In this document: one piece after another, positions 29,363-59,951 of the stretch | Layout of the letters: the number at the start of each line of letters is the position of its first letter | How positions within the stretch are numbered: the first letter of the stretch is position 1 | NCBI GenBank assembly: GCA_046350795.1 | Contig: JAXLZT010000001.1 | Location: 309,780-373,779, forward strand | Reading direction: 5' to 3' | Length of the DNA: 64,000 nucleotides | Origin: Minisyncoccota bacterium | GTDB lineage: Bacteria; Patescibacteriota; Minisyncoccia; Phycocordibacterales; CALRHW01 | The notes under the pieces: model-generated | Told to the model about the DNA's origin: nothing | Seen by the model: the letters and a program-made list of their open reading frames with translations, nothing else | The model's database searches: none | Position numbers and translations under genes: made by a program

Positions 29363-30964
29363 ATGAAAAGAACAAAACAAAAAATATATAAATTTACAGT
29401 GTCTCTAATGTTGTTGTTTTTTATATTTTCTTTTAAGAGCGTTTTTGGTGGAGATTATATAAAAACAGTTACAGATTTTATGGCTGATGGTACATGGACT
29501 GCTCCTACTGGAGTGACAAATATATCTATAGAAGGATGGGGTGGAGGCGGTGCGGGTGCAGGTAATACTGCCGATACTGTTTATGGTGAGGGAGCGGGTG
29601 GAGGCGGTGCTTATGCAAAAATAAATTCTTTTACTGTGACTCCTGGATCAGACTACACTGCAGATGTGGGTGCTGGTGGCGTAGGTAGCACTGGTCAAAA
29701 TGTAGACGGTTCGGATACTACTTTCAATAGCACTACCATGGTGGCGGACGGTGGTCTCGGTGGTTCTAATGAAGGTGGTGGCAACGGTGGAGGTGCTGGA
29801 GGTACCACGGGCAATAGTACTGGGGACGTGGAATATGCTGGTGGATCCGGTGGAGCCGGCGGTGGGACTAATATTGGATCTGGTGGAGGTGGTGGAGCCG
29901 GTGGAGCCGGAGGAGCCGGAGGAGTCGGCGGTAATGGTTCTTCGGGTGTGGGAGGAACAGCTGGTGCCGGTGGTTTGGGTCTTGAGGCTATTTATAATTT
30001 TTTATGGAATATTGGTGGGGAAGGAACTACTGGTTCAACCTCTGGACGTAACGGTAATCCCGGTGCTTATCCTGGTGGTGGGGGTGCTGGTGCATATGTT
30101 AACAACAGCACGGATCGCACTGGTGGAAGTGGTACTGCGGGTAAGATAGCTATTACATATGTAGAACCTTCTAGCTCGGGATACCCACAGTTTGTCAGTA
30201 AAAGTGTTTTCGCTACATCTACCGCTACTTCTGCCACAGTACCTTTGCCACCAGGTTATCTAAAGGGAGATCTAATACTTTTTTTTATTGCCGGTAGACC
30301 GTCCGGTAGCGCGGGGTCAAATGACACTATTACAGTACCCGCTGGCTGGACTCAGCGCGGATCACGACAAAGACTTGAAGTGGGTATACTTGATGCAGTT
30401 TCAGAGTTGTGGTACAAGGTGGCTACTTCTACAAATGATTCAAATACTGTGAGCGTTGGAACAGCTTTTTCTGGTACTGAAGGTTGGGTTATGCAGACAT
30501 TTGCTTACCGTGGTGTCAATCAAAGCTCTCCTTTCTCTGCTACAAATGTGGGCGGAACTAATGCATCATCAGTTACTTTTACTCCCACCGGTGCTACTCC
30601 TGCACCATTAAACTCATCAAACAGATCGAGAGTTGTAACTTTTGTATTATCTACTGATAATAATATGCTCGCTTTTGATTCATCTAGAGGATTTCTTACT
30701 CGTGCTGGATCAAATGAGGCTGTCGGATCTACGATTGGATCAACAGCTGTTGCCCCCGCAGTTTCTCTATATGTTGCTGATCAAGCAACAACCACTACGA
30801 GTGCTGCTACCATGCCCGTTTTTGAACAAGTGATTAATGGAGCCGATGGTTGGCTGTATATTAGTGAAGCTCTTGAGCCTGCACCACCATCAAAAAATCT
30901 AGTTACCTTTGGTGCTAAAATTTTAAAAATAATTGGAGGTAAGTTGATACTAAACCAGCAATAA
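29363..30964 (+). CDS. secreted glycine-rich protein with 'TWTAPTGVTNISIEGWGGGGAG' motif (Gly_rich-type, as in actinophage minor tail proteins)
   Basis: It has a signal peptide and long Gly-rich tracts (GGSGGAGGGTNIGSGGGGGAGGAGGAGGVGG). Its start is 7 nt after the giant gene's stop, so it is probably co-transcribed. Confidence 0.7.
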   Translation: MKRTKQKIYKFTVSLMLLFFIFSFKSVFGGDYIKTVTDFMADGTWTAPTGVTNISIEGWGGGGAGAGNTADTVYGEGAGGGGAYAKINSFTVTPGSDYTADVGAGGVGSTGQNVDGSDTTFNSTTMVADGGLGGSNEGGGNGGGAGGTTGNSTGDVEYAGGSGGAGGGTNIGSGGGGGAGGAGGAGGVGGNGSSGVGGTAGAGGLGLEAIYNFLWNIGGEGTTGSTSGRNGNPGAYPGGGGAGAYVNNSTDRTGGSGTAGKIAITYVEPSSSGYPQFVSKSVFATSTATSATVPLPPGYLKGDLILFFIAGRPSGSAGSNDTITVPAGWTQRGSRQRLEVGILDAVSELWYKVATSTNDSNTVSVGTAFSGTEGWVMQTFAYRGVNQSSPFSATNVGGTNASSVTFTPTGATPAPLNSSNRSRVVTFVLSTDNNMLAFDSSRGFLTRAGSNEAVGSTIGSTAVAPAVSLYVADQATTTTSAATMPVFEQVINGADGWLYISEALEPAPPSKNLVTFGAKILKIIGGKLILNQQ

Positions 30965-31014: not shown

Positions 31015-31375
31015 TTGAGTCTTGTGTTGGATGATTGCTGTGGGCGCAAGCTCATAGAGGAAAGTCCGAACATACGGTCGCGCCTTCAAAAGCGTGACAA
31101 GAGTAGCGGGTAACACCCGTCCGGAGCAATCCGCGAGATGCGAACAGAGACGTCGCAAAGCGAAAGTGATGCGATATCCAAAGACGCCTTAAAACGATTT
31201 TGGATAAGCTCGCATGGCAACATGTGAGTTGCAACGGCTAAATTCTTACTTGTATGCAAGGCCGTGCTCTGCGCAAGCAGAGAGTGCCGCTTGATCCACT
31301 CGGTAACGAGATGGACAGATAAATAATCATCGTCCGCAAGGATACAGAATTCGGCTTATAGACACAAGACAAACA
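31015..31375 (+). ncRNA. rnpB: RNase P RNA (bacterial type A-like)
   Basis: Conserved boxes are 'GAGGAAAGUCCGAAC' (P4 5' strand) and 'ACAGAAUUCGGCUUAUA' (P4 3' strand). The P1 helix is GTCTTGTGT (31019-31027) pairing with ACACAAGAC (31362-31370). It is a GC-rich patch in an AT-rich intergenic region with a terminator right after. The track ORFs 30781..31158(-) and 31052..31234(-) fall inside it and are considered spurious. Confidence 0.8.
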
Positions 31376-38093: not shown

Positions 38094-38333
38094 ATGAAAA
38101 AAGTATCAATATATTCAACACCAACCTGTCATTATTGTAATTTAGCAAAAGAATATTTTGCACAAAACAATGTTCCTTTTGAGAATTTTAATGTTTCCGA
38201 GGATGCAAATAGGCGTCAGGAAATGATAGACAGGACAGGTCAGATGGGTGTGCCGGTAATAATGATTGATGACGAACTCATTGTTGGTTTCAACAAGCCA
38301 CTTATAGCACAGCTTTTGGGTCTTCCTGCCTAG
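38094..38333 (+). CDS. glutaredoxin-like protein (NrdH/YruB-type)
   Basis: The active site is 'VSIYSTPTCHYCNLAKEYF' (CxxC), and later motifs 'TVPQIFIDDEL'-like 'GVPVIMIDDELIVGF' are present. Length is 79 aa. Confidence 0.7.
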   Translation: MKKVSIYSTPTCHYCNLAKEYFAQNNVPFENFNVSEDANRRQEMIDRTGQMGVPVIMIDDELIVGFNKPLIAQLLGLPA

Positions 38334-38345
38334 TTTTCTGTGCAT

Positions 38346-38417
38346 GCCGTCGTAGTTCAATGGATAGAACAGTCCCGTCCTAAGGGATAGATGTAGGTTC
38401 GATTCCTACCGGTGGCA
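38346..38417 (+). tRNA. tRNA-Arg (anticodon CCT)
   Basis: The manually folded cloverleaf has acceptor GCCGTCG/CGGTGGC, D-stem GTTC/GAAC, anticodon stem GTCCC/GGGAT with loop gTCCTaa, and T-arm GTAGG-TTCGATT-CCTAC. No encoded CCA. Confidence 0.75.
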
Positions 38418-38465
38418 CATTTTAGCCTTTGATTTCCGCGTATTTTCTGCTATAATCTCTCTTGT

Positions 38466-38711
38466 ATGAACCCAGAAGAAAGAGCGCTCATTGAGGAAAC
38501 ACTCGCTATTTCGCGAGAAAATAACAATATACTAAAGAGCATGCGGAGATCTGCTCGTTTGGGTCGTATAATGCAGATTACGTATTGGTTGCTCATAATC
38601 GGCGCTTCTGTGGGTGCATATTATTTCATTCAGCCATATATTGAACAGTTGCTTGGAGTATATAGTGGGGTGCAGGATGGGGTAATGAAAGTAAACGATT
38701 TTTTTCAGTAG
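38466..38711 (+). CDS. small hypothetical membrane protein (81 aa)
   Basis: The ORF has one predicted TM helix (ITYWLLIIGASVGAYYFI). No family was recognised. Confidence 0.35.
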   Translation: MNPEERALIEETLAISRENNNILKSMRRSARLGRIMQITYWLLIIGASVGAYYFIQPYIEQLLGVYSGVQDGVMKVNDFFQ

Positions 38712-38744
38712 ATTCTGTTTTTTCTGTTATTGTATTTTATATAT

Positions 38745-38820
38745 GCCGAGGTAGCTCAGTTGGTAGAGCATGTGCCTGAAGAGCATGGGGTCGGCGGTTC
38801 AAGTCCGCCCCTCGGCACCA
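38745..38820 (+). tRNA. tRNA-Phe (anticodon GAA)
   Basis: The cloverleaf has acceptor GCCGAGG/CCTCGGC, D-arm TAGCTCAGTTGGTAGAGC, anticodon loop CTGAAGA, and T-arm GGCGG-TTCAAGT-CCGCC, with an encoded CCA. The track ORF 38730..38930 overlaps it and is spurious. Confidence 0.85.
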
Positions 38821-38960
38821 AAGATAAAAAACCGCCCAAATTGTGGCGATTTTTTTATGTATTGACTAAAACTCAATTATCCTGTTTCATTAATAAAAGA
38901 CAGTACAATTGCCACTGTGGCAGTTTGTAGACTTTCGCACTTTGAGTGGGGGTGTAATAT

Positions 38961-39629
38961 ATGCCAAGAAAAACCGATGTTCAGACCTCTCCAGAGACCG
39001 TGATCCGTCGCAGGATTTCAGACTCAGAGCTTGAATTGGCAGAGTGCAGTCCGTTTCTGCCAAAGCCTCTAGAGAAGTTCTACTACTTCAGTGATGATCA
39101 GAGGGATGCGTGCTTTCGTTTGATTGTGTTGGTGGGGGAGGCGCACCTTTTCTTTGGTCGTCGTATGGAGCTTGTGGAAAAAGTCACTCGAGACAGAGCT
39201 TTGGGTGCAATCGATCACGTCAAGGGTGAGATCTCAAGGTTCACGCAAATGTTCGTCGACACTCTGGAAGGCGTGCGCACTGGTGACACGACGTTTGATG
39301 TCGCCACTATTCGTACGGGTTGCGTTTTTCGATTTCGTCTCAAGGTTTTTGCTCTCGGTCTAGCGATCGAATTGAGCAGGATTACTTTTGACAAAATCGA
39401 CACAAGAAGACTGTTCGCTCACAACGTCAGGTTGAGCGAGATGGACAGTGTCTTGATGGAAGGAGCGCGACAGTCTCCAGAGCTTTTCCCGATCTCTCTG
39501 GTGGAATACTGGAGATCGAACGTGGTCAGTCCTTATCGATCGTTGCTACTTACGCAACCGTATGCGAAGTCGAGATTTTTGGCTCGCATGCGTCACCAAG
39601 CAGTCTCCCTTCACAAGCTCTGTGAGTAA
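38961..39629 (+). CDS. hypothetical protein encoded in an anomalously GC-rich islet (no recognisable family)
   Basis: This is the longest ORF of a ~1.2 kb patch (38.94-40.11 kb) whose GC content and codon usage (GC-ending codons) differ sharply from the flanking ~35% GC DNA. It lies just downstream of tRNA-Phe. Confidence 0.45.
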   Translation: MPRKTDVQTSPETVIRRRISDSELELAECSPFLPKPLEKFYYFSDDQRDACFRLIVLVGEAHLFFGRRMELVEKVTRDRALGAIDHVKGEISRFTQMFVDTLEGVRTGDTTFDVATIRTGCVFRFRLKVFALGLAIELSRITFDKIDTRRLFAHNVRLSEMDSVLMEGARQSPELFPISLVEYWRSNVVSPYRSLLLTQPYAKSRFLARMRHQAVSLHKLCE

Positions 39630-39671
39630 TATGGTGGTACTTTCCACCAACTGTGTCTACGGGGGTAGAAA

Positions 39672-40085
39672 TTGGGCAGATCAAATCCAACCTCAGAGGA
39701 GAATCACGTGAGACATCAGGAAGTCTCGATCAGGGGTCTCGAGGATGCTTTTGAGAGTTTGCGTCATTCCTCAGAAGTGTCCATGGAGCCGGACGAAGTT
39801 CTGGCCGAACTCAGCTCTCGGGTGATTGAGATCCGCACACACCTGGCTTCTGCCGGGGTTGACTGTGCGGCGATTGATCGCAAGCTCACCACAAATGCGT
39901 GGATGCTCTTGCCAGCGCTCAGAAACAGCCCCATCATCAGCAATCACAGGAAGTTTCTCGCTGATCGGGGTGTCCCTGTGCATGACTGCTGGTGGCTCAA
40001 GAAGCGCTTCTGGGTGGTCGTCGAGGGGCAGTATCTCGAACGCAAGCTCGCGCTGTCTAAACTTGCCCTGGAAAAAGGGGCATGA
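39672..40085 (+). CDS. hypothetical protein, second ORF of the GC-rich islet
   Basis: The ORF is 137 aa, GC-rich, and followed by a strong bidirectional terminator. No family was recognised, and alternative overlapping frames exist, as expected in GC-rich DNA. Confidence 0.4.
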   Translation: MGRSNPTSEENHVRHQEVSIRGLEDAFESLRHSSEVSMEPDEVLAELSSRVIEIRTHLASAGVDCAAIDRKLTTNAWMLLPALRNSPIISNHRKFLADRGVPVHDCWWLKKRFWVVVEGQYLERKLALSKLALEKGA

Positions 40086-40124
40086 CGTGAGATGCGTTAC
40101 GTGAAATGATGGTACTCTCCATCG

Positions 40125-40155
40125 AAAGGGCTCCGCAATTGCGGAGCCCTTTATA
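40125..40155. terminator. bidirectional rho-independent terminator between the GC-rich islet and convergent hsp20
   Basis: The sequence is cgaaaGGGCTCCGCaattGCGGAGCCCtttatac, a perfect 10-bp stem. Confidence 0.7.
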
Positions 40156-40157
40156 CT

Positions 40158-40622
40158 TTATGAATTATTTTTTACTCTAAGTTTTGCCTGTTTTGATTTG
40201 TCTAGTTTTGGTAATTTTATTATGAGTAGGCCGTGCTTTTCTATTGCTTCTGAATCTTCTATCTCTACTTCTTGAGGTAACATTATGGTGCGAGAAAAAC
40301 TACCCCAATATAATTCTCGATTAAAATAATCCTCATCACGTATAAGTCTTTCAGATTCTCTTTTTCCTCTTATTGTAACCATATCTCTGGTGATGCTGAT
40401 ATCTAGATCTTCTGGTCGGACACCCGCCACCATTGTTTTTATAATTATATCTGTGGATGTTTGGTACATATCTATCGTTAATTCTCCATCTCCGTTTTCT
40501 TCGTCTTCTGCTTCGCTGTCGCGCATTTCAGAAACGCCAATATTTCTTTTTTCCAAAGCAAAATCCTCGTCCACTCTTACTGCGCCGGTTAACTTTTCAA
40601 AAAATGATCTTTTGATTGACAT
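40158..40622 (-). CDS. Hsp20/alpha-crystallin family small heat-shock protein
   Basis: The alpha-crystallin domain is 'LTIDMYQT...DLDISITRDMVTIRGKRE...FSRTIMLPQEVE...AIEKHGLLIIKLPK'. Confidence 0.85.
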   Translation of the reverse strand: MSIKRSFFEKLTGAVRVDEDFALEKRNIGVSEMRDSEAEDEENGDGELTIDMYQTSTDIIIKTMVAGVRPEDLDISITRDMVTIRGKRESERLIRDEDYFNRELYWGSFSRTIMLPQEVEIEDSEAIEKHGLLIIKLPKLDKSKQAKLRVKNNS

Positions 40623-40634
40623 GAATATCTTGAT

Positions 40635-41390
40635 TTAATGTACTAAACTTTTTATTTTCTCAAAAAATAACATTAGTCCTGCTGTACATAGCCACAATAT
40701 TGAAAATACAATAAAAGTATTGCTTCCGTTCTCATTCATTATAAATAAATTGAAGACAGTATGCAATGCAATCGCAATGATTAATCCGATGAATGTGTAA
40801 AAATTGCGTATTTTTGGATGTCTGTAAAAAGAAAATGCAATAAATATACCGACAGTTGCTGAGGCTATAGTATGTAAAAGACTTGCTCCCACAAAACGTA
40901 AGTTGCTAGTGATAATGGTGTCTGCCAAGTAGCTTGTGTTTATAACTCTTATGCTTTGTATAGAGTTTTCTATCATTGGAGAAAGTAGAAAAAGAGTGTT
41001 TTCTATGGCCACAAATCCAAGAGCGGCTGTAATGAGATATATGACGGCGTCTATGGGTTCATCTAGCTCTTTTCTGTGGAAAACTGCAAAGAAACCAGCT
41101 CCAAACTTAAAAATTTCTTCTATTGTGGCCCAAAGTAGAAAAAGTAGCACTGGATATGCCCCAAAATATTTTGAAGCTAAAAATTGAAAGGGAATTACAA
41201 GCGGAACAGCGATCATTCCAGCTATAAAGGTTCTTGCGACCAATCTTTTTGGCTCGGGTGATTTTTTGTCTTCGCGAAGCCAAAACCAAAGCCATAAAAG
41301 TGCTGGTAAAATACCCATAATAATACTAAATAGTAATGTAAAAGTGCTGGGCATAGTTTGATTTGTATAAATAATACCACATTGACTCAA
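40635..41390 (-). CDS. PrsW-family intramembrane metalloprotease-like membrane protein
   Basis: It has a multi-TM structure with PrsW motifs 'EEIFKFG' (EExxK), 'FVAIENTLF' (FxxxE) and 'LHTIASATVG' (H). The start may be the internal Met at ~41354. Confidence 0.65.
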   Translation of the reverse strand: MSQCGIIYTNQTMPSTFTLLFSIIMGILPALLWLWFWLREDKKSPEPKRLVARTFIAGMIAVPLVIPFQFLASKYFGAYPVLLFLLWATIEEIFKFGAGFFAVFHRKELDEPIDAVIYLITAALGFVAIENTLFLLSPMIENSIQSIRVINTSYLADTIITSNLRFVGASLLHTIASATVGIFIAFSFYRHPKIRNFYTFIGLIIAIALHTVFNLFIMNENGSNTFIVFSILWLCTAGLMLFFEKIKSLVH

Positions 41391-44208: not shown

Positions 44209-44335
44209 GTTTTTTATCATCCCAACTTTATCATCTGATTCGTCTTTATACAAAAGGAAAACCTCGGCGCGCACCTGTGTGCGCACCGAGGTCATTGACC
44301 TTCGTGATCATCGCGACCAGCCCGACTCGTGCCCC

Positions 44336-44875
44336 CTAGCTGTACTTCTGAGAAAACAAGTTGGCCGCCAACTCGACGTAGAAGTCCTTCTCCTCCTCTA
44401 TGAGCCCCGCTGTCAGGAGGGTGTGGTAGGTATCGTTGAACACCTGCTCAGCTTCAGCCAAGTCTCGCTCGTTGCGTTCGCGATTATTGGGTTCATGATT
44501 GAGCTTGGCACGATTTTCCTGGACATTCAACGCCAAGTAGACCAGTCGATCGTGTGCACGGCCTTCGAGTACGCTCATGTCACTTCTGACCACTTGTGAT
44601 GGAGTGTACCTCTGTACGCATCCATCCGTGAAGTACAGGTTTTCTGCGACTTTTCTGGCCCACCTACAGAAGCCGGCAACCAAGCGCTTTTCCAGATCAT
44701 TTCCGTTGCCGGAGACGACCTTTTGGGCGATCTCTGCTGGATCAGCACCGTGCGTTTCCTCCCAGTATCTCAGTACTTGCCAGTTGAACTGTTGGTGTCT
44801 TTGGTGTGATTTGTGCATGCTCGCAGCCCACACCGCATCGTCTTTTGCAAGACTTTTCGATTTACGCAGACTCAT
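44336..44875 (-). CDS. hypothetical protein in second GC-rich islet (no recognisable family)
   Basis: This is a 179-aa ORF in a ~0.65 kb GC-rich patch directly upstream of tsaD. Two perfect short hairpins (GCGCACctgtGTGCGC; GGTCAttgTGACC) separate it from tsaD. Confidence 0.4.
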   Translation of the reverse strand: MSLRKSKSLAKDDAVWAASMHKSHQRHQQFNWQVLRYWEETHGADPAEIAQKVVSGNGNDLEKRLVAGFCRWARKVAENLYFTDGCVQRYTPSQVVRSDMSVLEGRAHDRLVYLALNVQENRAKLNHEPNNRERNERDLAEAEQVFNDTYHTLLTAGLIEEEKDFYVELAANLFSQKYS

Positions 44876-45023
44876 GTCGTGCTCCTTGAGTAGCGGTTTT
44901 TGGGTAGAGAGCGAATTCTTTATATAAGATTATTTATTAATCAAACTGTGTCAACCTCTTGAAAGAGTGTCTTTTGGTGAGCCTAATCGAGATGCGACCC
45001 AAGGATTCATTGCCCTGTAAGGC

Positions 45024-45218
45024 TCATTTTAGCTCTTCCTGACTTCTTAATCGACCCTTCTCGAGAGTAGCTTTCTTTGTATACAAATGAGGGTTTTGCT
45101 TCTTATCTTGATCTAGTAACCATTGGAATACTGCGACCACTCTGTCGCTTTCTTCTTTAGTCCAATTTTTAGGATTTCTTTTATCTTCTTGGTTCATAGA
45201 AAGTGACAAAAGTGACAC
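45024..45218 (-). CDS. small hypothetical protein (64 aa)
   Basis: This is an ORF only; no motif was recognised. Confidence 0.3.
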   Translation of the reverse strand: MSLLSLSMNQEDKRNPKNWTKEESDRVVAVFQWLLDQDKKQNPHLYTKKATLEKGRLRSQEELK

Positions 45219-45252
45219 AGAATCAAGTATAAAAGTTACACCTCAATGTAAC

Positions 45253-46161
45253 TTAATTATCTATTTGGATTATCTTTGACCCGTTGTCTGGATCCTCAGT
45301 TCTTTGTTGTAGAGTAAGCTTTCTGTAGTGAGAACAAGAGAATTTTAAGAAGTCATCTATTTCATCAAGATCAATATTTCCTTTCATGAGATCAGAAGGA
45401 TGAATCGAGATAATTAGATTTTCACATATGTTCAGATTCTTTGATGATTCGATGTAGCTTGTGATTATTTCTTTAATAGCACCTCTACGAGTCATATATG
45501 AGTCTCTTCCGTGTTGGGTATTTATTAGCGGGATAGTTAAATTTACATTCCTACCAGAATCCAAGGCAACATATTGCCAGAGCCCATTTAATGCCTGTAT
45601 AAAGTCATCAATTTCTGACCGAACACGATTGTTGTCCTTTTTAACAGAATTCACTACTAGGTAAAACTTTTTACCGTTCTGCTCCACTTCAATAGTTTTA
45701 CCTATCTCATGTTTTTGACCAATCGTAACTTTTGCGGAAATATCAGTATTTAAGTGATCAACTTTGTTTGCATAAAACTTCTGGATCACCTGATTTTGAA
45801 TACTGTTAGCCTTAAGAGCATTACCGCCAAGAGACATATCAAATTCGTCATTCACAGGAACCACCAAGGCACCACTATTATTGAAAGCATCGCCAACCTT
45901 AACTTCAATATAACTGTCTTTATTTCGCAAATTGTATTTAAAAGACGTTCGGGGTCTATTTTTTACAAGCGAAAGAATGCAGACAAGAATAAAGACTCCA
46001 CTGAATAGATAAACATTTTTGAAAATACTGTCTGTACTTTCATTCGTGCTGTAGCTAAACATCTCGACAAACAACCAAAATATACCCACCCAAGATACAA
46101 TATCAATAAAAATATTCTTCAGGTTTCTCCACCATCTTTTTATTCTGAGTGAAATTTTCAT
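45253..46161 (-). CDS. ThsA-like effector candidate: two N-terminal TM helices + cytoplasmic Macro-like domain
   Basis: The TM helices are 'IVSWVGIFWLFVEMF' and 'VYLFSGVFILVCILSLV'. The cytoplasmic segment 'IEVKVGDAFNNSGALVVPVNDEFDMSLGGNALKANSI' resembles the Macro-domain N-terminal motif (GDIt...DAIVNAANs.LlgGGGV..AI). Its start overlaps the TIR gene stop by 4 nt (ATGA), indicating an operon. Confidence 0.5.
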   Translation of the reverse strand: MKISLRIKRWWRNLKNIFIDIVSWVGIFWLFVEMFSYSTNESTDSIFKNVYLFSGVFILVCILSLVKNRPRTSFKYNLRNKDSYIEVKVGDAFNNSGALVVPVNDEFDMSLGGNALKANSIQNQVIQKFYANKVDHLNTDISAKVTIGQKHEIGKTIEVEQNGKKFYLVVNSVKKDNNRVRSEIDDFIQALNGLWQYVALDSGRNVNLTIPLINTQHGRDSYMTRRGAIKEIITSYIESSKNLNICENLIISIHPSDLMKGNIDLDEIDDFLKFSCSHYRKLTLQQRTEDPDNGSKIIQIDN

Positions 46162-46661
46162 AGCCCTAGAGCAGTATAAGCATCTTGGTTATACCGAAAA
46201 GGTCCTGTTTTACCGGCTCTTTTGTATTGGTTGTGCAATGACTCCCATTCACTCAATGCTTTACTAATAATTTTTTGATTAAAACTAACATGGACAGCAA
46301 GTTCGGTATCTAAGATTGACGGACATAGGTCATCATCGTGATATCTTTTACCATTCAGATTTACGGCAATAATAGGAAGTCCTTTTTTGATTGCTTGCTC
46401 AATTTCCCAACGAACAAACTTGTGATGAAATTTTGTTTTCTCGCCAATAAGGATGATGAAAACCTTTGTATTGTTCAGACGTTCCCTCAAACTTGCCTTA
46501 ATGGATTCTTCGGTTGACCACGGCATTATATTTGTAAGGTCGTGGGCATCGTAGAAGTTAAAGTTTGTGTTATCGTTTTGTTTCCATGCTTGCATTAAGC
46601 GGTAGTAACGAATATCGTTATCCGCATCAAAGGCAACATAAGTTTTGTTTGTGTAAGCCAT
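46158..46661 (-). CDS. TIR-like domain protein (ThsB-like, DUF1863/TIR_2-type)
   Basis: 'KTYVAFDADNDIRYYRLMQAW...TKVFIILIGEKTKFHHKFVRWEIEQAIKKGLPIIAVNLN' aligns by eye with Bacillus cereus ThsB ('RVFFSFHYQDVIDF...TSVTCVLIGSQTFNRRWVRYEIMKSIEKGNKIIGIHIN'). Confidence 0.75.
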   Translation of the reverse strand: MAYTNKTYVAFDADNDIRYYRLMQAWKQNDNTNFNFYDAHDLTNIMPWSTEESIKASLRERLNNTKVFIILIGEKTKFHHKFVRWEIEQAIKKGLPIIAVNLNGKRYHDDDLCPSILDTELAVHVSFNQKIISKALSEWESLHNQYKRAGKTGPFRYNQDAYTALGL

Positions 46662-46666
46662 ACAGT

Positions 46667-46897
46667 TTAGCCCCTTGGTGGGAATGGGTCATTTCCATAG
46701 CTGTTACGCTCTTGGATCTTTCCGTCTTTACCATGAATAAAGTGTTCAACCTTTGTTTTTTCAGCAACTTTTTCAGCTCTATCGAGAGCATTATTTTTTG
46801 TATGATGTGAAGAAATAGGAGTTGATGATCCCTCTTTTTTGTTTTCCCACATACTACGATCTGAATTGTATACAGTGTGTATATTTTTGTTAGCCAT
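46667..46897 (-). CDS. DUF2188-family small protein
   Basis: The C-terminal 'FIHGKDGKIQERNSYGNDPFPP' matches the DUF2188 signature (iHgrDGkIrernsYGnDP.pp). Confidence 0.5.
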   Translation of the reverse strand: MANKNIHTVYNSDRSMWENKKEGSSTPISSHHTKNNALDRAEKVAEKTKVEHFIHGKDGKIQERNSYGNDPFPPRG

Positions 46898-46908
46898 ATA
46901 TTTATAAA

Positions 46909-47550
46909 TTAACTTTTAATAATTCCGACAACCTTTCCGCTTAACTGGAAATCATCACCCTCATGAATAAATATCGGGAGATATTTATCAGTTGATTCCG
47001 CCTCAAGAACGATACGATTGTTCGCTTTGTCATTTTTGTATCGTTTGATAGTTGCCATTCCGTCTATGACAGCAACAACGATGTCTCCGTTCTTGTAGCT
47101 TTTGTATCCACTATCCACCAAAACAAAATCTCCGCTTTCAATAGTATTTTTGTCATCTACTTTTGCGAGATTCATACTATTACCGTCTGCTATAACAGAA
47201 TAGAGATCTTTCTTGTTGTATGGCAACATAGAAGATGAGACCTTGAGATACTGCTGAATATTTTGTTCGGCAAATATAGTCGCAGGACCACAGTTTGCAG
47301 ATCCAACAACAGGGAGTGAGAACACAGTATTAACGGTTGATTTAACAAGACCTCGCTTTACAGGTTTTATAACCCCTTGTTCAAGGTTCATTTGAATCAT
47401 TCCAGCCTTTTCAAGCTGTAATAAGTGATATTTCACTATCTGCGGTTTGTCAGGCACGCCAATTTTATCGGCTATTGTTCTAAGGCTGTATGATCCAATA
47501 TTAGGATCACTATCTATGAGAGCTAAAAGCTGTTTCTGTTTGTTGTGCAT
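46909..47550 (-). CDS. lexA: LexA-like repressor (winged-helix DNA-binding domain + S24 peptidase domain)
   Basis: The N-terminal wHTH is 'IADKIGVPDKPQIVKYHLLQLEKAGMIQ'. The S24 domain has catalytic Ser ('ADGNSMN') and Lys ('MATIKRY'). The predicted cleavage region 'VVGSANCGPA' has Cys-Gly where canonical LexA has Ala-Gly. Confidence 0.75.
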   Translation of the reverse strand: MHNKQKQLLALIDSDPNIGSYSLRTIADKIGVPDKPQIVKYHLLQLEKAGMIQMNLEQGVIKPVKRGLVKSTVNTVFSLPVVGSANCGPATIFAEQNIQQYLKVSSSMLPYNKKDLYSVIADGNSMNLAKVDDKNTIESGDFVLVDSGYKSYKNGDIVVAVIDGMATIKRYKNDKANNRIVLEAESTDKYLPIFIHEGDDFQLSGKVVGIIKS

Positions 47551-47628
47551 ACACCTATTATAGCATACTTTTCAACTTACAACAATATAAATTTGACACT
47601 TTTGACGGCAATCTGATATACTTTCCCT

Positions 47629-48048
47629 ATGGAGCAAAGTTTGCAATTAAATCGAGTAACACAGCTTCCAAAGAAAGGTGAAAAAGTCATCGTTCTTGAG
47701 CTTACCGATATTCAATTGCACTCTAATGCAAGACCTACCCAATCGGTTGGTGGTGCAATACGACGCTCCATAGAAAATAATAAGCCTGGTCGTATCTTTT
47801 CTTCTCTTGAGAAGAAACAAGAATCAAGTGCTGATCAAAATTCAATAGAGTTCACCATGCCGTTTGCAATGAACGATCCTGTACTAAAGCAAACAATCCA
47901 TGACTACCAACAACAAGGTTATCGTGTATTGATTCAAATGCCGAAATCAGGACTACCGATTCATCTTGGCAAGGATGCTGTCGAATTTATGAATAGTACT
48001 CGAGGAAAGCGAATCTTGAGAAAGATAAAGAAAGACAAAGGAAATTAA
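47629..48048 (+). CDS. hypothetical protein divergently transcribed from lexA-like gene
   Basis: This is a 139-aa ORF with a basic C-terminus. No family was recognised. Confidence 0.35.
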   Translation: MEQSLQLNRVTQLPKKGEKVIVLELTDIQLHSNARPTQSVGGAIRRSIENNKPGRIFSSLEKKQESSADQNSIEFTMPFAMNDPVLKQTIHDYQQQGYRVLIQMPKSGLPIHLGKDAVEFMNSTRGKRILRKIKKDKGN

Positions 48049-48207
48049 ATAAAAACGCGTCGTAAAAGCGAATAGTGCAACGCCACAAGCCATGCCTATT
48101 CCGCGCAAGAAGTAGTTTGAGGTTTTTCGGACCTCTACTTATTTCGTGTGTGGAATAGGCTTTTTCTATATCCATACATTTTATTAAAGATTAATTAATA
48201 AAATGCT

Positions 48208-49482
48208 ATGAAAAAACTTTCATGGACTACAGGAGTTCGAGAGGTCAAAGACCTACTCCCTTGGCAAGAAAACCCAAGAAAAATCTCAAAGCAAGCGTTA
48301 GATAAGTTGAAAGAAAAGATCACACAAAACGGCTTCCACAGCGTGATCGTGATTGATACCGACAATACGATTCTGTCAGGGAATCAAAGAAAGGTTGCAC
48401 TCATGGAGCTTGGTATCAATACCGTAGACGTAATGATCCCTAGTCGTAAGCTAAGTGATGCAGAACGACGAAGAATCGGTATTGAAAGCAATATCAATGA
48501 CGGTGAATGGAATTTCGAGAAATTGAAGTCATTTGATCTGGAACTACTCCAATTTGCAGGATTCGATGAAAAAGAATTAGTGAAGTTCTGGGACGAAGAA
48601 AAAGACACTAAAGACGACAAGTTCGATGTAGACAAGGAACTCAAGAAAATTAAGACGCCTCAAACAAAGTTGGGTGATCTTATTATCATGGGTAATCATA
48701 AGTTGCTTTGCTCAAGTTCTACTGATATCACTGCGGTTAAAAAACTATTCGGTGATGATAGAGCTACTGCTATCTACAGTGATCCACCTTTTAATATTGG
48801 GCTTTCATATGACAAAGGCGTTGGTAATAAATCAAACTATGGTGGTTCATTTGATGATAATCAATCACCAGAAGCATACAAGGAATTTATTCGCCAAGTT
48901 CTCACATCATCACTCGCCATATCCACCAAAGATACACATGTTGCATTTTGGTGTGATGAAGCGTGGGTGTGGGTTTTTCAAACCTTATATATGGAACTGG
49001 GCGTAAAGAATCGTAGGCTAAATATTTGGATCAAGAACAACTCCTCGCCTATACCCACCGTCGCATTTAACAAGTGTGCGGAGTATTGCGTGTACGGCAC
49101 AAAAGGATCTCCGTATCTGTCTGATTTAGTCAAAAACCTTAACGAGATTCAAAACAAGAATTGCACAACTGGAAATCAACTTCTTGAAGATATCTCGAAC
49201 ATTTGGGCAACTAAACGACTGCCGTCAAACCAAATGGAGCACCCTACAAGCAAAAATCCTGAACTACACCACAAGTTCATCATGCGATGCACAAAGCCAG
49301 GAGACATAATCTTCGATGCCTTTTCTGGTTCTGCTAGCACCATGATCTGTGCGGAGCAACTTGATCGCAAAGTCTACTCACTTGAAATTGAACCCGTGTT
49401 CTGTGACTTGGCAATTCGCAGATACGAAAAATTGACTGGTCGGAAAGCAAAAGTAATCAAGAACTTCTATGAAAAAGAATAA
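48208..49482 (+). CDS. ParB-like nuclease domain fused to N6-adenine/N4-cytosine DNA methyltransferase (phage-type orphan MTase)
   Basis: The N-terminal ParB/Srx-like domain is 'SKQALDKLKEKITQNGFHSVIVIDTDNTILSGNQRKVA'. Motif IV is 'AIYSDPPFNIGLSY' (DPPY/F). The SAM-binding motif I near the C-terminus ('DIIFDAFSGSASTMICAE') indicates beta-class N6_N4 MTase topology. Confidence 0.8.
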   Translation: MKKLSWTTGVREVKDLLPWQENPRKISKQALDKLKEKITQNGFHSVIVIDTDNTILSGNQRKVALMELGINTVDVMIPSRKLSDAERRRIGIESNINDGEWNFEKLKSFDLELLQFAGFDEKELVKFWDEEKDTKDDKFDVDKELKKIKTPQTKLGDLIIMGNHKLLCSSSTDITAVKKLFGDDRATAIYSDPPFNIGLSYDKGVGNKSNYGGSFDDNQSPEAYKEFIRQVLTSSLAISTKDTHVAFWCDEAWVWVFQTLYMELGVKNRRLNIWIKNNSSPIPTVAFNKCAEYCVYGTKGSPYLSDLVKNLNEIQNKNCTTGNQLLEDISNIWATKRLPSNQMEHPTSKNPELHHKFIMRCTKPGDIIFDAFSGSASTMICAEQLDRKVYSLEIEPVFCDLAIRRYEKLTGRKAKVIKNFYEKE

Positions 49483-49876
49483 ATTTCAGGATCAGTTTCT
49501 TGATGAACTACGAAAAGTTCCGATCGTTCAAGTTGCTTGTGAGAAAACAGGATTGTCTCGCAATAGTGTTTATCGTTGGAGAAAAGATGATAAAGCATTT
49601 CTCAAGAAGATGGACGATGCACTTGCCGATGGTGTCGCATTGGTAAACGACATGAGTGAAAGCCAACTACTCACACTCATTAAAGAGAAAAATTATCCTG
49701 CAATCAGTTTCTGGCTTAAACATCGCAATGATAATTATAAAAACAAGCTAGAGATCACCACTAAAGAAGATTCTGAACAACTTACTCCTTCACAAGCAAA
49801 AATCGTGAAGCAGGCACTTAAGCTCGCCAATATAACAAAATCGAAATCGATTAAAAACATTAACTCTAAAAAGTAA
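49469..49876 (+). CDS. phage terminase small subunit-like HTH protein
   Basis: It has the HTH 'VACEKTGLSRNSVYRWRKDD'. It lies immediately upstream of TerL and overlaps the preceding gene by 14 nt. Confidence 0.5.
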   Translation: MKKNKFQDQFLDELRKVPIVQVACEKTGLSRNSVYRWRKDDKAFLKKMDDALADGVALVNDMSESQLLTLIKEKNYPAISFWLKHRNDNYKNKLEITTKEDSEQLTPSQAKIVKQALKLANITKSKSIKNINSKK

Positions 49877-49877
49877 C

Positions 49878-51374
49878 ATGACTAAAATAATTCCAAATGC
49901 ATTGGTGAATACCATGCTAAAAGATCGTTCCGTGCGAACATCTATTACAAAAGACAGTTTCCTGTATTTCTTCCACTTCTACTACGCCCACTATGTAAAA
50001 TACGAAACCGCTGACTTTCAGAAAGAGATTATTCATAATCTCGAAAAAAGCTCGATTGAGAATATGTACGTTGTCGCATTTCGTGGATCAGGAAAATCTA
50101 CAATGGTGACGACCGCATATCCTATCTGGGCAATACTTGGAAAACAACAAAAGAAGTTTTGTATTATCTTTTGCCAAACTCGAGCACAAGCAAAACAGCA
50201 TATGATGAACATTCGTACTGAGCTTGAGGGTAACGATGTTCTTAAAAAGGATCTCGGACCATTCCAAGAAGAAAGCGATGAGTGGGGTTCGTTCTCATTA
50301 GTATTCAAAAAGCACGGAGCAAGAATCACCGTAGCTTCTGCCGAGCAAAGTATCCGTGGCATTCGTCACAACGAACACCGCCCAGACTTAATAATCTGTG
50401 ATGACGTTGAGGACGTGCAATCGACCAAAACCCGTGAGGGACGAGATAAAACATACCATTGGCTTCGAGGTGAAGTTATCCCTGCTGGCGATAGAAACAC
50501 CCGACTAATTATTGTTGGAAACTTACTCCATGAAGATTCACTCTTGATGCGTATTAAAGACGAAATCGCCAAAGGTAAGGCAAAAGGAATATTCAAGGAG
50601 TACCCGCTTATAGATAATCATGGTGTGTGCTTATGGTCAGGTAAATACAAAAGCGAGAAAGATCTTGAGGATGAAAAGTTGAAAGTTTCTAGTGATATAT
50701 CATGGCAACGAGAATATCTATTGCGTATTATTCCAGACGATGATCAGGTTATTTATCCTGAATGGATCAACTACTACGACGAATTGCCAGGCGAAAAGCA
50801 CCGGGGATTCAGAGGCACTTATGCGGGTGTCGATCTTGCGATTTCAGCTTCAGAAACTGCTGATGACACTGCTGTTGTATTTGCTCATATATATTCACGC
50901 CGTGAGAAAATGCGAATATACATATTGCCTAATCCTATCGCAAAGAAACTTAATTTTCCTGCACAGGTAGATCTCATGAAAGATATTCGTAGTACGATGC
51001 TCATAAAAAGTACGGACGAGTTATTTGTAGAAAGCGTGGCGTACCAAGAAGCACTTCCGCAAATGCTCGAACACCAAGGTGTTAAAGCGACAGCAATCAA
51101 ACCTAAAGGAGATAAAAGAACACGACTTGCTCTTACTTCGACCGCAATAAAATCATCAAAGATCTTATTTCCAAGACAAGGATGCGAGAGACTTATTGAG
51201 CAACTTGTAGGGTTTGGAGTAGAAAAGCATGACGACCTTGCCGATGCATTTTCGTTGCTTATAAACTCAACCATGGATAAGCATGCTAAAGATTCAACAT
51301 GGCTTATGTACTGGATGGGAGATGAAGAACCTTTGTACTATAGAGATTACGTTGATATGGACATAAAAAAGTAG
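49878..51374 (+). CDS. phage terminase large subunit (ATPase + RNaseH-like nuclease domains)
   Basis: Walker A is 'VAFRGSGKSTMV' and Walker B is 'LIICDDVED'. The nuclease-domain motif is 'YAGVDLAISASETADDTAVVFAHI'. Confidence 0.8.
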   Translation: MTKIIPNALVNTMLKDRSVRTSITKDSFLYFFHFYYAHYVKYETADFQKEIIHNLEKSSIENMYVVAFRGSGKSTMVTTAYPIWAILGKQQKKFCIIFCQTRAQAKQHMMNIRTELEGNDVLKKDLGPFQEESDEWGSFSLVFKKHGARITVASAEQSIRGIRHNEHRPDLIICDDVEDVQSTKTREGRDKTYHWLRGEVIPAGDRNTRLIIVGNLLHEDSLLMRIKDEIAKGKAKGIFKEYPLIDNHGVCLWSGKYKSEKDLEDEKLKVSSDISWQREYLLRIIPDDDQVIYPEWINYYDELPGEKHRGFRGTYAGVDLAISASETADDTAVVFAHIYSRREKMRIYILPNPIAKKLNFPAQVDLMKDIRSTMLIKSTDELFVESVAYQEALPQMLEHQGVKATAIKPKGDKRTRLALTSTAIKSSKILFPRQGCERLIEQLVGFGVEKHDDLADAFSLLINSTMDKHAKDSTWLMYWMGDEEPLYYRDYVDMDIKK

Positions 51375-51446
51375 TCGCGAGTATGCGACGTATTTCTAGT
51401 TCTGCATAGTCTATGCACCACCGACTGGTCTGTCATTAATTAATAT

Positions 51447-52730: not shown

Positions 52731-52734
52731 GAAA

Positions 52735-53916: not shown

Positions 53917-53921
53917 ATAAT

Positions 53922-59740: not shown

Positions 59741-59744
59741 AAAA

Positions 59745-59951
59745 TTATTTTAATAATTCGTTAGTCGACACTCCCAATGTCTGGGCTAGATTAGTAATAG
59801 TTGAAAGAGTAGGGTTTGTCTTTCCATTCTCAATATTACTTACAAAAGATTTGTCTACACCGAGTGTTTTGGCAAGTTCGGTTTGCGTAATATTCTTCTT
59901 AGTTCTGATTTTCTTGAGATTCTCTCCTAATTTTTTGGCACCATCTTTCAT
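59745..59951 (-). CDS. XRE-family helix-turn-helix transcriptional regulator (controller-like, upstream of the R-M operon)
   Basis: The HTH_3 motif is 'ITQTELAKTLGVDKSFVSNIENGKTNPTLSTITNLAQTLGVSTNEL'. Length is 68 aa. Confidence 0.7.
   Translation of the reverse strand: MKDGAKKLGENLKKIRTKKNITQTELAKTLGVDKSFVSNIENGKTNPTLSTITNLAQTLGVSTNELLK

What the first reader, a model, noticed from the sequence alone, without database searches (positions are those of the whole stretch)
38940..40110. GC-rich (~50-55%) foreign islet with two unknown ORFs inserted next to tRNA-Phe in a ~35% GC genome
Immediately downstream of tRNA-Phe the composition switches abruptly. Codons become GC-ending, and two ORFs (222 and 137 aa) with no recognisable domains appear, ending at a strong bidirectional terminator. 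An 18-bp element recurs right after each ORF stop: 'atgGtggtactTtccaCc' at 39631 and 'atgAtggtactCtccaTc' at 40106. tRNA-adjacent location plus a compositional jump is the classic signature of horizontal acquisition. For an episymbiotic CPR bacterium the donor could be its high-GC (e.g. actinobacterial) host or a host-infecting phage, which would make these candidate host-interaction or host-derived genes. An assembly chimera is an alternative explanation.
Basis: seen in the sequence. Interest (0 to 1): 0.65.

Follow-up and report, generated by a model that had tools for sequence, protein, structure and literature searches.

The report
Old GC-rich two-gene islet beside tRNA-Phe
A 1.3-kb GC-rich insert next to tRNA-Phe in an AT-rich Parcubacteria (CPR) genome is real foreign DNA with two fast-evolving genes of unknown function, but it is an old acquisition shared by a small clade, not a recent import or an assembly error.

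Summary
Window 38,940-40,110 is the most GC-rich (51% vs 38%) and most tetranucleotide-deviant 1.17-kb stretch of the window. ORF GC3 is 0.55 and 0.66, against 0.28±0.04 for 40 host ORFs. The 18-nt repeat occurs only after the two stop codons.

It is not a chimera. Ten independent assemblies give the same junctions, and four related lineages carry orthologous modules; wherever the flanks are assembled they lie at the same site. More distant relatives have an empty site: tRNA-Phe lies 34-60 bp from the hsp20 stop.

The ~1.3-kb insert (about 38,860-40,157) was therefore gained once, by the ancestor of a small Parcubacteria clade. It then co-diverged with its flanks (dS about 0.9 for both). Its proteins are under purifying selection (dN/dS about 0.3) but change about ten times faster than their neighbours.

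Both genes are moron-like units with a promoter, a structured leader, a conserved post-stop hairpin and a terminator. Pfam, PHROGs, PADLOC, NCBIfam, PDB, phage collections and billions of proteins gave no homologue outside the clade. The donor is unidentified, and function is only inferred: an accessory, possibly conflict-related pair.

This is an ordinary kind of feature, of moderate-to-low interest.

The parts
38745..38820 (+). tRNA-Phe (GAA). It is the left landmark of the insertion site and is not part of the insert.
   Evidence: ARAGORN and Rfam. In outgroup genomes this tRNA lies 34-60 bp from the hsp20 stop.
38826..38855 (.). Ancestral bidirectional terminator hairpin (AAAAAACCGCC...GGCGATTTTTTT). 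It is orthologous to the single terminator that fills the empty site in relatives.
   Evidence: Terminator scan. The empty-site spacers of L011, L012, L017 and L026 have the same AAAAACCGC...GCGGTTTTT form.
38860..40157 (+). The inserted islet as a whole, about 1.3 kb and 50.4% GC. It lies between the ancestral terminator and the hsp20 stop codon. Boundaries are approximate.
   Evidence: Comparison with empty sites, composition and orthologous inserts in L032, L029, L028 and L014.
38863..38895 (+). Conserved promoter-like block: TTGACT, 17 nt, then TTTCATTAATA. It is nearly identical between the window and L032.
   Evidence: Alignment A8 shows TTGACTAA and TTTCATTAATA invariant in 4 lineages with constant spacing. 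The scan did not flag it as a sigma-70 promoter, because the -10 hexamer TTTCAT lacks A at position 2.
38900..38928 (+). Stem-loop in the 5' leader of ORF1. The outer stem is ACAG/UUGU. The inner stem is AUUGCCA/UGGCAGU with loop CUG.
   Evidence: 97.7% of cells are paired, against 27-50% for slid controls. Three pairs show compensatory changes. The G-U pairs are valid only on the + strand.
38961..39629 (+). ORF1: 222 aa, a new family, predicted all-helical, with no signal peptide seen by eye. GGGGG/GGAGG Shine-Dalgarno-like box upstream.
   Evidence: ORF. Orthologues at 59, 39, 35 and about 28% identity. dN/dS is 0.32 against L032. The single-sequence AF2 model has pLDDT 50 and is all-helical.
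39631..39650 (+). Post-stop hairpin HP1, first copy: AUGGUGGUACUUUCCACCAA. Stem UGGUGG/CCACCA, loop UACUUU. It starts 2 nt after the ORF1 stop.
   Evidence: family D5; RNAalifold recovers it as consensus.
39656..39669 (+). Second small hairpin (HP2-like): UCUAC-GGGG-GUAGA. It corresponds in position to UCGGU...ACCGA or UCGAC...GUCGA in relatives.
   Evidence: Read by eye. Not tested formally.
39708..40085 (+). ORF2: 125 aa from GTG, with AGGAG at 39697-39701. A new family forming a six-helix bundle.
   Evidence: Orthologues at 64, 41-44, 36 and 30-35% identity. dN/dS is 0.29. AF2 with alignment A6 gives pLDDT 84.6 and pTM 0.77.
40106..40125 (+). Post-stop hairpin HP1, second copy: AUGAUGGUACUCUCCAUCGA. 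The G-C pair of copy 1 is replaced by A-U.
   Evidence: pair 8/21: GC in 5 copies, AU in 3.
40125..40152 (.). GC-rich bidirectional terminator at the right end of the insert. It now serves ORF2 and the convergent hsp20.
   Evidence: Equivalent hairpins occupy the same place in L032, L029 and L014.
40158..40622 (-). hsp20 (PF00011). It is the right landmark and a host gene with normal composition (GC3 0.27).

Best explanation
SHOWN.
- The GC-rich stretch is a genuine insertion of about 1.3 kb between the terminator of tRNA-Phe and the stop codon of the convergent hsp20 gene.
- It carries two real protein-coding genes of two previously undescribed helical protein families with no detectable domains.
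- Each gene is built like a phage 'moron': its own promoter, a structured 5' leader, the ORF, a conserved hairpin just after the stop codon, and a terminator.
- In this window the terminator and promoter between the two genes have been lost, so they probably form one operon here.
- The module is present in a monophyletic set of close relatives (wherever the flanks are assembled, at this same site), and the site is empty in the outgroups, which points to a single gain by the ancestor of a small clade of Parcubacteria (CPR/Patescibacteria).
- The tRNA-flanked spacer is a recurrent landing place for foreign DNA in this group.
- The module now has no recombinase and no att repeats.
- Its synonymous divergence matches that of its flanks, which fits vertical inheritance. 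Its proteins change about ten times faster than its neighbours while staying under purifying selection.

INFERRED.
- The GC3 excess of about +0.3 seen in every lineage is the not yet erased, or partly maintained, signature of a very GC-rich and still unsampled donor.
- The two proteins work together, because they are always retained together.
- They most likely form an accessory conflict-type module (defence, toxin-antitoxin-like, or symbiont-host interaction).
- The shared post-stop hairpin most likely acts on the mRNA, as a 3'-end stabiliser, a processing site or a protein-binding site that treats both messages alike.
For: Real junctions:
- The same islet and flanks occur in 10 independent assemblies, at 99.3-100% identity with no gaps.

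Insertion:
- Seven outgroup genomes have tRNA-Phe 34-60 bp from the hsp20 stop, with a single terminator.

Clade-wide orthologues:
- Full synteny (81-aa gene, tRNA-Phe, ORF1h, ORF2h, hsp20) in L032 and L029. L028 shows only the tRNA-Phe side and L014 only the hsp20 side; both contigs end within the module.
- {window, L032, L029, L014} are at least 81% identical in HSP20+PrsW. The empty-site genome L026 is an outgroup at 72-80%.

Coding and co-divergence (window vs L032):
- dS is 0.95 and 0.92 for the module and 0.81 for hsp20.
- dN/dS is 0.32 and 0.29 for the module, against 0.04-0.12 for the flanks.

Composition:
- Module GC3 is 0.52-0.77 against host 0.28-0.39 in all five lineages.
- Polarised synonymous changes are GC>AT 16 and AT>GC 5 in the module, against 17 and 17 in the flanks.

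RNA elements:
- HP1 is 97.9% paired with a compensatory GC<->AU change. The leader stem-loop is 97.7% paired with 3 compensatory pairs.

Separate transcription units:
- A terminator and a sigma-70-like promoter lie between the genes in L029 and L032.

Hot spot:
- L022 has a large serine recombinase element at this same site. L013 has an unrelated GC-rich ORFan there. The window has a 15-kb serine-recombinase defence island beside tRNA-Glu.

Genomic islands are common in Patescibacteria (PMC12455944).
Against: - No recombinase, att direct repeat or other footprint of the integration mechanism remains. The route of entry is therefore inferred from the site only.
- No homologue exists outside the clade, so foreign origin rests on composition and on the presence/absence pattern.
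- The functional guess has no direct support. There is no PADLOC, Pfam or structural match. In relatives the two genes are separate transcription units, which is atypical for toxin-antitoxin pairs.
- A rough neutral amelioration estimate (my own arithmetic from the dS and GC3 values) requires an ancestral GC3 of about 0.9 or more. That is borderline, and may mean the GC content is partly maintained rather than a pure relic.
- dS values above about 1 are saturated.
- The polarisation is biased towards GC>AT, because the outgroup is itself GC-rich.
Confidence: 0.6

Rival explanations
1. Recent horizontal transfer from the episymbiont's high-GC (actinobacterial) host, or from a phage infecting that host.
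For: - There is a strong GC and GC3 excess and the islet lies next to a tRNA.
- Back-extrapolating the GC3 excess suggests a donor with GC3 near 0.9. This is an inference.
Against: - The module is shared by four further diverged lineages, at the same site wherever the flanks are assembled, and its dS equals that of the flanks.
- No actinobacterial, phage or other homologue was found, although a relative at 35-36% identity was recovered at E = 2e-21.
- The relatives are Parcubacteria-type MAGs, whose hosts are unknown.
Confidence: 0.05
2. Assembly chimera: a GC-rich fragment from another organism joined into an AT-rich contig.
For: Only the abrupt change in composition.
Against: - Identical junctions occur in an NCBI MAG and in nine Logan assemblies from three SRR accession-number series.
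- Orthologous but diverged modules occupy the same site in other species.
- Promoter, leader and terminator elements are conserved across the junction regions.
Confidence: 0.01
3. The GC-rich segment is a structured non-coding RNA, as GC-rich intergenic regions in AT-rich genomes often are, and the ORFs are accidental.
For: - Both parts of the transcript fold better than dinucleotide shuffles (z about -2.9).
- The 3' half of ORF1 gives z from -1.4 to -4.0 in five lineages, whereas host segments range from about -1.6 to +1.0, centred near 0.
Against: - dN/dS is about 0.3, with protein-level conservation down to 27-35% identity. Starts, stops and ribosome-binding sites are conserved.
- There is no Rfam match even at E = 10.
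- RNAalifold finds little conserved structure inside the coding sequence apart from HP1. The covariation term is only -1.6 kcal/mol.
Confidence: 0.02
4. The high GC3 is not a fading relic. It is maintained by selection on mRNA structure or stability, by a need for rare codons and low expression, or by biased gene conversion, because the module's function depends on it.
For: - The GC3 excess, about 0.13-0.4 depending on lineage and ORF, persists in all five lineages, including L014, whose hsp20 dS against the window is about 1.6.
- My rough neutral decay estimate needs an implausibly high ancestral GC3.
- There is excess predicted folding in the 3' half of ORF1.
Against: - Polarised synonymous changes run 16 GC>AT to 5 AT>GC. 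That is close to the roughly 4:1 expected for neutral decay under the host's AT bias, and not the 1:1 expected at equilibrium.
- Synonymous sites in the module are not slower than those in the flanks.
- No conserved intragenic helices were found.
Confidence: 0.15
5. A bona fide type II toxin-antitoxin pair, for example a HEPN-like ORF2 toxin with ORF1 as its partner.
For: - Two small cytoplasmic proteins are always retained together, evolve fast and sit in an integration hot spot.
- ORF2 is a small helical bundle with an R-x4-H string (R87...H92).
- HEPN structures appear among the non-significant Foldseek hits.
Against: - There is no Pfam, PADLOC or NCBIfam hit.
- The Foldseek hits have E above 1 and TM about 0.3.
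- The Arg of the R-x4-H string is not conserved: it is His in L029 and absent in L014.
- ORF1 is not a nucleotidyltransferase-like partner.
- The genes are separate transcription units, with a terminator between them, in four of five lineages.
Confidence: 0.12

Closest known systems
tRNA-associated genomic islands or islets, including those reported in Patescibacteria (PMC12455944)
   Same: - Compositionally deviant accessory DNA sits beside a tRNA gene.
- It is present in some lineages and absent, with a clean empty site, in others.
- It carries ORFans.
- The same spacer is used by other elements, including one with a serine recombinase.
   Different: - It is only 1.3 kb.
- It has no integrase and no att duplication of the tRNA 3' end.
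- It is inserted downstream of the tRNA's terminator rather than in the tRNA gene.
- It is fixed and vertically inherited within a clade.
- It is GC-richer than its host, whereas mobile DNA is usually AT-richer.
Phage 'morons': autonomous promoter-gene-terminator units with deviant composition
   Same: In relatives each ORF has its own sigma-70-like promoter and intrinsic terminator, and its composition differs from the surrounding DNA.
   Different: It is not embedded in a prophage. No phage genes lie nearby, and no homologue was found in IMG/VR or INPHARED.
Type II toxin-antitoxin modules such as HEPN-MNT
   Same: A two-gene set of small cytoplasmic proteins. It is lineage-restricted, evolves fast and sits in an accessory hot spot.
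   Different: It has no family signature and the catalytic motif is not conserved. The genes are not organised as a tight operon in most lineages.
Repeated post-gene palindromes: integron attC sites and REP elements
   Same: A short imperfect palindrome recurs immediately 3' of each ORF.
   Different: - The hairpin is only 18-20 nt, against 57-141 nt for attC.
- There are no attC core sites, and no intI or RAYT gene.
- There are only two copies in 64 kb, both inside the islet.
- Matches elsewhere in metagenomes are coincidences inside an ATPase coding sequence.

Membership tests
tRNA-targeting integrative genomic island | Integrase or recombinase gene within the element | tested here: not met
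   The insert holds only ORF1 and ORF2, neither with a recombinase domain. A large serine recombinase occupies the same site in L022.
tRNA-targeting integrative genomic island | Direct repeats (attL/attR) that duplicate part of the tRNA gene at the far end | tested here: not met
   The repeat finder on 38300-40700 found no tRNA-derived or flanking repeat. The one 25-nt repeat (38710 and 40353) lies upstream of the tRNA and inside the hsp20 coding sequence, so it does not bracket the insert.
tRNA-targeting integrative genomic island | Deviant composition, and presence/absence among relatives with an intact empty site | tested here: met
   GC z = 3.8, tetranucleotide z = 5.3, GC3 0.55 and 0.66 against 0.28. 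Seven genomes show the empty site.
Type II toxin-antitoxin (HEPN-MNT type) | Match to HEPN or MNT profiles, or to their fold | tested here: not met
   Pfam, PADLOC and NCBIfam gave no hit. A PDB sequence profile search gave E above 0.4. Foldseek against PDB gave a best E of 1.3, with HEPN hits at TM about 0.3.
Type II toxin-antitoxin (HEPN-MNT type) | Invariant R-x4-6-H catalytic motif | tested here: not met
   His92 is invariant, but Arg87 is His in L029 and is missing in L014.
Type II toxin-antitoxin (HEPN-MNT type) | Co-transcribed, adjacent or overlapping gene pair | tested here: inconclusive
   The window has a 78-nt spacer with no terminator. L029 and L032 (scans) and L028 and L014 (by eye) have a terminator plus a promoter between the genes.
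Type II toxin-antitoxin (HEPN-MNT type) | Toxicity of one partner that is neutralised by the other | not testable with these tools
   This needs expression experiments.
Integron gene cassette array | attC sites of 57-141 bp with conserved cores, and an intI gene with attI | tested here: not met
   HP1 is an 18-20 nt hairpin with no GTTRRRY cores. The insert has no integrase and none turned up among the other window ORFs scanned.
Known structured RNA family (Rfam) | Covariance-model match at or near the gathering score | tested here: not met
   Only tRNAs and RNase P reach threshold in the window. Nothing in 38700-40300 beyond terminator-driven chance hits.
Protein-coding gene (as opposed to a spurious ORF) | Purifying selection and conservation of the reading frame in orthologues | tested here: met
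   dN/dS is 0.29-0.32 against L032. Orthologues are full-length in L032 and L029; ORF1h is full-length in L028; the others are cut by contig ends (L014 ORF1h, L028 ORF2h) or have an uncertain start (L014 ORF2h).

The most novel reading that the evidence does not exclude
The islet is not a passive relic. It is a Parcubacteria-specific conflict module (defence, addiction or host interaction). Its GC-rich codon usage, structured leader and shared post-stop hairpin are functional and actively maintained. For example, one of the two proteins may bind the hairpin on both mRNAs to control expression. On this reading the tRNA-flanked spacers of these tiny genomes are dedicated slots where such GC-rich ORFan units accumulate: ORF1/ORF2, ORF3 at tsaD|tRNA-Glu, and the L013 ORFan.
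Probability: 0.15. Interest if true: 0.55.

Novelty: new member of a known kind. Interest (0 to 1): 0.3.

Why it matters
- It gives a clean, dated example of foreign DNA captured and kept in a streamlined CPR genome. The example includes an exact empty site, clade-wide orthologues and measurable rates.
- It defines two new lineage-restricted protein families, plus conserved RNA hairpins, as candidates for symbiont-specific functions.
- It flags tRNA-flanked spacers as integration hot spots in Parcubacteria.
- The persistence of a +0.3 GC3 offset across deep splits is a small puzzle for amelioration models.
- It does not open a major question. HGT islands with ORFans are already known in Patescibacteria.

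Tried and rejected
1. Homology searches found nothing outside the clade.
 - Pfam, PHROGs, PADLOC and NCBIfam on the window proteins and on all orthologues.
 - PDB sequence profiles.
 - Foldseek of the good ORF2 model against PDB and BFVD.
 - IMG/VR pattern scans with tblastn, and INPHARED tblastn.
 - P0005 (1356 aa) is a spurious repeat match: FKFRLRAYKNFG against FRFRLKVFALG.
2. I used the HP1 hairpin as a probe. It gave 26 metagenome and 6 viral exact matches. The recurrent, conserved ones lie inside protein-coding sequence (an 'LMVVFSTN'-type ATPase motif recurs); the rest are isolated one-off matches. None carries the module.
3. ORF1, ORF2 and ORF3 are not related to one another. The L013 ORFan is not demonstrably related to ORF1 (hhalign probability 0.8%).
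4. I looked for att-type repeats and found none. The 25-nt repeat D3 does not bracket the insert, and an 11-nt complementarity between HP1 and the tRNA D-loop is not conserved in relatives.
5. I looked for conserved intragenic RNA structure. RNAalifold recovered only HP1 convincingly.
6. The ORF1 structure model (single sequence, pLDDT 50) was too poor to search with.
7. Polarised substitution counts are too few, and biased by the outgroup, to settle relic versus maintained GC.
Full report
**1. The observation**

The window averages 37.9% GC. The stretch 38940-40110 is 51.4% GC. That is the highest of all 1171-bp windows (z = 3.8). It is also the strongest tetranucleotide outlier (z = 5.3).

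The excess is concentrated at third codon positions. GC3 is 0.55 for ORF1 and 0.65-0.66 for ORF2. Forty host ORFs of at least 150 aa average 0.28 ± 0.04, with a maximum of 0.41.

- tRNA-Arg (38346-38418) and tRNA-Phe (38745-38820) lie just upstream.
- ORF1 is 38961-39629, 222 aa.
- ORF2 most likely starts at GTG 39708, giving 125 aa, behind an AGGAG box. This matches the gene calls in other assemblies and the N-termini of orthologues.
- The bidirectional terminator is at 40125-40152.
- The 18-20-nt repeat occurs only at 39631 and 40106, even with three mismatches allowed. Chance expectation is 0.05.

Another GC peak at 29.6-30.4 kb is a glycine-rich protein gene with normal GC3 of 0.25. A third peak at 44.3-44.9 kb is a second aberrant ORF, described in section 8.

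**2. Not a chimera**

Proteins identical or 98% identical to ORF1 are encoded on contigs from an NCBI MAG (GCA_964417815.1) and from nine Logan assemblies that fall into three SRR accession-number series. All align to window 36-43 kb without gaps at 99.3-100% identity, and they span both junctions.

**3. An insertion, with an empty site in relatives**

I used the neighbouring hsp20 to fetch 17 related loci, all from Parcubacteria-type MAGs. Their labels read Parcubacteria, Nomurabacteria, Adlerbacteria or, for some third-party assemblies, 'Saccharibacteria'.

In seven of these loci tRNA-Phe lies 34-60 bp from the hsp20 stop. The two are separated by a single bidirectional terminator of the form AAAAACCGC...GCGGTTTTT. 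The window keeps that terminator right after the tRNA, at 38826-38855.

Everything from about 38,860 to 40,157 is therefore extra. That is about 1.3 kb at 50.4% GC, and it includes a second, GC-rich terminator abutting the hsp20 stop.

**4. The module is shared by a clade and is old**

An exhaustive phmmer search of 1.84 billion representatives with ORF1 found three real relatives. These are P0001 (98% identity), P0003 (40%) and P0004 (36%). It also returned one spurious repeat protein. A profile search with ORF2 found P0008 (65%), P0006 (44%) and P0007 (36%).

Their contigs show the same gene order wherever flanks exist: 81-aa gene, tRNA-Phe, ORF1 homologue, ORF2 homologue, then convergent hsp20 and prsW. 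This holds for L032/L033, L029-L031, L028 (partial) and L014.

On HSP20+PrsW identity, {window, L032, L029, L014} form a group at 81% or more. The nearest empty-site genome, L026, falls outside it at 72-80%. This implies a single gain in the ancestor of the group.

Window compared with L032:

| Gene | dS | dN/dS |
|---|---|---|
| ORF1 | 0.95 | 0.32 |
| ORF2 | 0.92 | 0.29 |
| hsp20 | 0.81 | 0.04 |
| 81-aa gene | 0.28 | 0.12 |

The genes are therefore real and under purifying selection. They co-diverged with their flanks, and they accumulate amino-acid changes roughly ten times faster than those flanks.

Between the two strains of the window's own species (99.46% identical), the islet carries 11 SNPs. 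Eight are non-synonymous. None falls in the non-coding elements.

**5. Composition through time**

In all five lineages the module's GC3 is 0.52-0.77, against host values of 0.28-0.39.

I polarised synonymous changes on the window and L032 branches, using L029 as outgroup. The module shows 16 GC>AT against 5 AT>GC. The flanks show 17 against 17. This fits decay towards the host's AT-rich equilibrium, but the GC-rich outgroup biases the count in that direction.

I also made a rough two-state decay estimate from these dS and GC3 values. This is my own arithmetic, not a tool result. It requires an ancestral GC3 near or above 0.9 at the base of the clade. Either the donor was extremely GC-rich, or the GC content is partly maintained. 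I cannot decide between the two.

**6. Anatomy of the units**

- **Promoter-like block.** Upstream of ORF1, a TTGACT-N17-TTTCATTAATA block is invariant in four lineages. It is virtually identical between the window and L032, despite dS of about 0.9 in the coding sequences.
- **Leader stem-loop.** The leader forms a two-part stem-loop at 38900-38928. It is 97.7% paired, against 27-50% in slid controls. Three pairs show compensatory changes, and its G-U pairs work only on the sense strand.
- **Post-stop hairpin HP1.** After each stop codon, by 1-21 nt, sits HP1 (UGGUGG-UACUYU-CCACCA). It is 97.9% paired over eight copies. A GC<->AU compensatory switch appears in three copies. RNAalifold recovers it independently.
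- **HP2.** A second small hairpin follows HP1 after ORF1. I read this by eye only.
- **Between the genes.** In L029 and L032 (scans) and in L028 and L014 (by eye), an intrinsic terminator and a sigma-70-like promoter separate the two genes. The window has only a 78-nt spacer, so the pair is probably co-transcribed here.

The islet transcript folds better than dinucleotide shuffles (z about -2.9). The 3' half of ORF1 does so in all five lineages (z from -1.4 to -4.0), whereas host segments range from about -1.6 to +1.0, centred near 0. No conserved intragenic helices emerged, so this remains an unexplained hint.

**7. What the proteins are**

No library recognises either protein. This covers Pfam, PHROGs, PADLOC and NCBIfam, run on all orthologues, and PDB sequence profiles.

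- ORF1 is predicted all-helical, but at low confidence (pLDDT 50).
- ORF2, modelled with five sequences, is a confident six-helix bundle (pLDDT 84.6, pTM 0.77).
- That bundle has no significant structural neighbour in PDB or BFVD. The best E-value is 1.3, and a few HEPN toxins appear at TM about 0.3.
- An R-x4-H string in ORF2 has an invariant His but a non-conserved Arg, so membership of HEPN is not supported.
- ORF1 and ORF2 are unrelated to each other.
- Neither has relatives in IMG/VR or INPHARED.

**8. Context: tRNA-flanked spacers are landing sites**

The same tRNA-Phe|hsp20 spacer holds different inserts in other lineages:

- A large serine recombinase element in an Adlerbacteria genome, L022.
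- An unrelated GC-rich ORFan in L013.
- Other genes in L015 and L025.

In the window itself, tsaD and tRNA-Glu are adjacent in L029 but here are separated by two inserts:

- A second GC-rich ORFan, ORF3 (44336-44875, minus strand, GC3 0.62).
- A 15-kb strain-specific island at 44994-60039. It carries Thoeris, Shedu, a type I restriction-modification system, a methylase and a large serine recombinase.

Genomic islands are known to be frequent in Patescibacteria (PMC12455944).

**9. Interpretation**

What is shown: a real insertion that is specific to one clade and whose divergence matches vertical inheritance. It carries two genuine, fast-evolving genes, each with conserved regulatory and RNA elements.

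What is inferred:

- Entry was through the integration hot spot, followed by loss of the mobility functions.
- The donor was GC-rich and has not been sampled.
- The function is accessory and possibly conflict-related. The grounds are co-retention of the two genes, their fast evolution and the neighbourhood logic.
- HP1 acts on both mRNAs.

The chimera alternative is excluded.

**10. Verdict**

This is a new member of a known kind: a small horizontally acquired islet of ORFans at a tRNA hot spot. Interest is about 0.3. The most novel reading still open is that the GC-rich composition and the hairpins are functionally maintained parts of a Parcubacteria-specific conflict module. I put its probability at about 0.15.

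Noticed in passing
window 44209-44993 (ORF3 44336-44875, minus strand): A second GC-rich ORFan islet. ORF3 is 179 aa, 52% GC, GC3 0.62, with its own promoter-like site, AGGAG box and terminator. It lies between tsaD and tRNA-Glu. It is absent in L029, where tsaD abuts tRNA-Glu. It is unrelated to ORF1 and ORF2, and has no Pfam (precomputed hits for the identical L001 gene), PADLOC or viral hit.
   Followed up: partly
window 44994-60039: A 15-kb strain-specific defence island beside tRNA-Glu, absent from strains L001 and L002. It carries Thoeris (ThsA-Macro at 45253-46161, ThsB-TIR at 46158-46661), DUF2188, an S24 LexA-like repressor, an N6/N4 methylase, a helicase and an AlpA-like HTH protein. 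It also carries a large serine recombinase (51447-52730), Shedu SduA (52735-53916) and a type I restriction-modification system, hsdR/S/M (53922-59740).
   Followed up: partly
L022 6500-9100 (Candidatus Adlerbacteria GW2011_GWA1_54_10, LCRO01000006.1): A 2.5-kb insert with a large serine recombinase (7576-9120) sits at the same hsp20|tRNA-Phe site. The recombinase ORF runs into the tRNA gene, and a stretch of about 23 residues is repeated in two ORFs.
   Followed up: partly
L013 6470-7277: A different GC-rich insert (56% GC against 47% for the locus) with a 211/225-aa ORFan at the same site. It is not demonstrably related to ORF1. An equally long antisense ORF overlaps it.
   Followed up: partly
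L029 about 5068-5097; L032 about 392-421: A degenerate copy, about 30 nt long, of the 5' part of tRNA-Phe (GCCGAGGTAGCTgTCTTGGTAGAaattc) lies about 40 nt upstream of the genuine tRNA-Phe. It may be a footprint of an older recombination event at this tRNA. It is mostly deleted in the window.
   Followed up: no
window 39250-39629 and the orthologous 3' halves of ORF1 in L032, L029, L028 and L014: Predicted folding energy is consistently lower than in dinucleotide shuffles (z from -1.4 to -4.0), whereas host gene segments range from about -1.6 to +1.0, centred near 0. No conserved helices were found apart from HP1.
   Followed up: partly
window 39630-39707 compared with L032 1337-1555, L029 6078-6318, L028 1016-1223 and L014: Relatives have an intrinsic terminator plus a sigma-70-like promoter between the two genes. 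The window has lost both, so two transcription units have apparently fused into one operon.
   Followed up: yes
window 29363-30964 and 31019-31374: The GC peak at 29.6-30.4 kb (54% GC, GC skew 0.4) belongs to a Gly_rich_2 protein gene with normal GC3 of 0.25. It is driven by amino-acid composition, not by foreign origin. An RNase P RNA (bacterial class A, 105 bits) follows it.
   Followed up: yes
record titles of L013, L014, L016, L017, L019, L020 and L024-L026: Third-party MAG assemblies closely related to this genome are labelled 'uncultured Candidatus Saccharibacteria bacterium'. Their nearest named relatives are Parcubacteria, Nomurabacteria and Adlerbacteria, so the label looks like a placeholder or a misassignment.
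   Followed up: no
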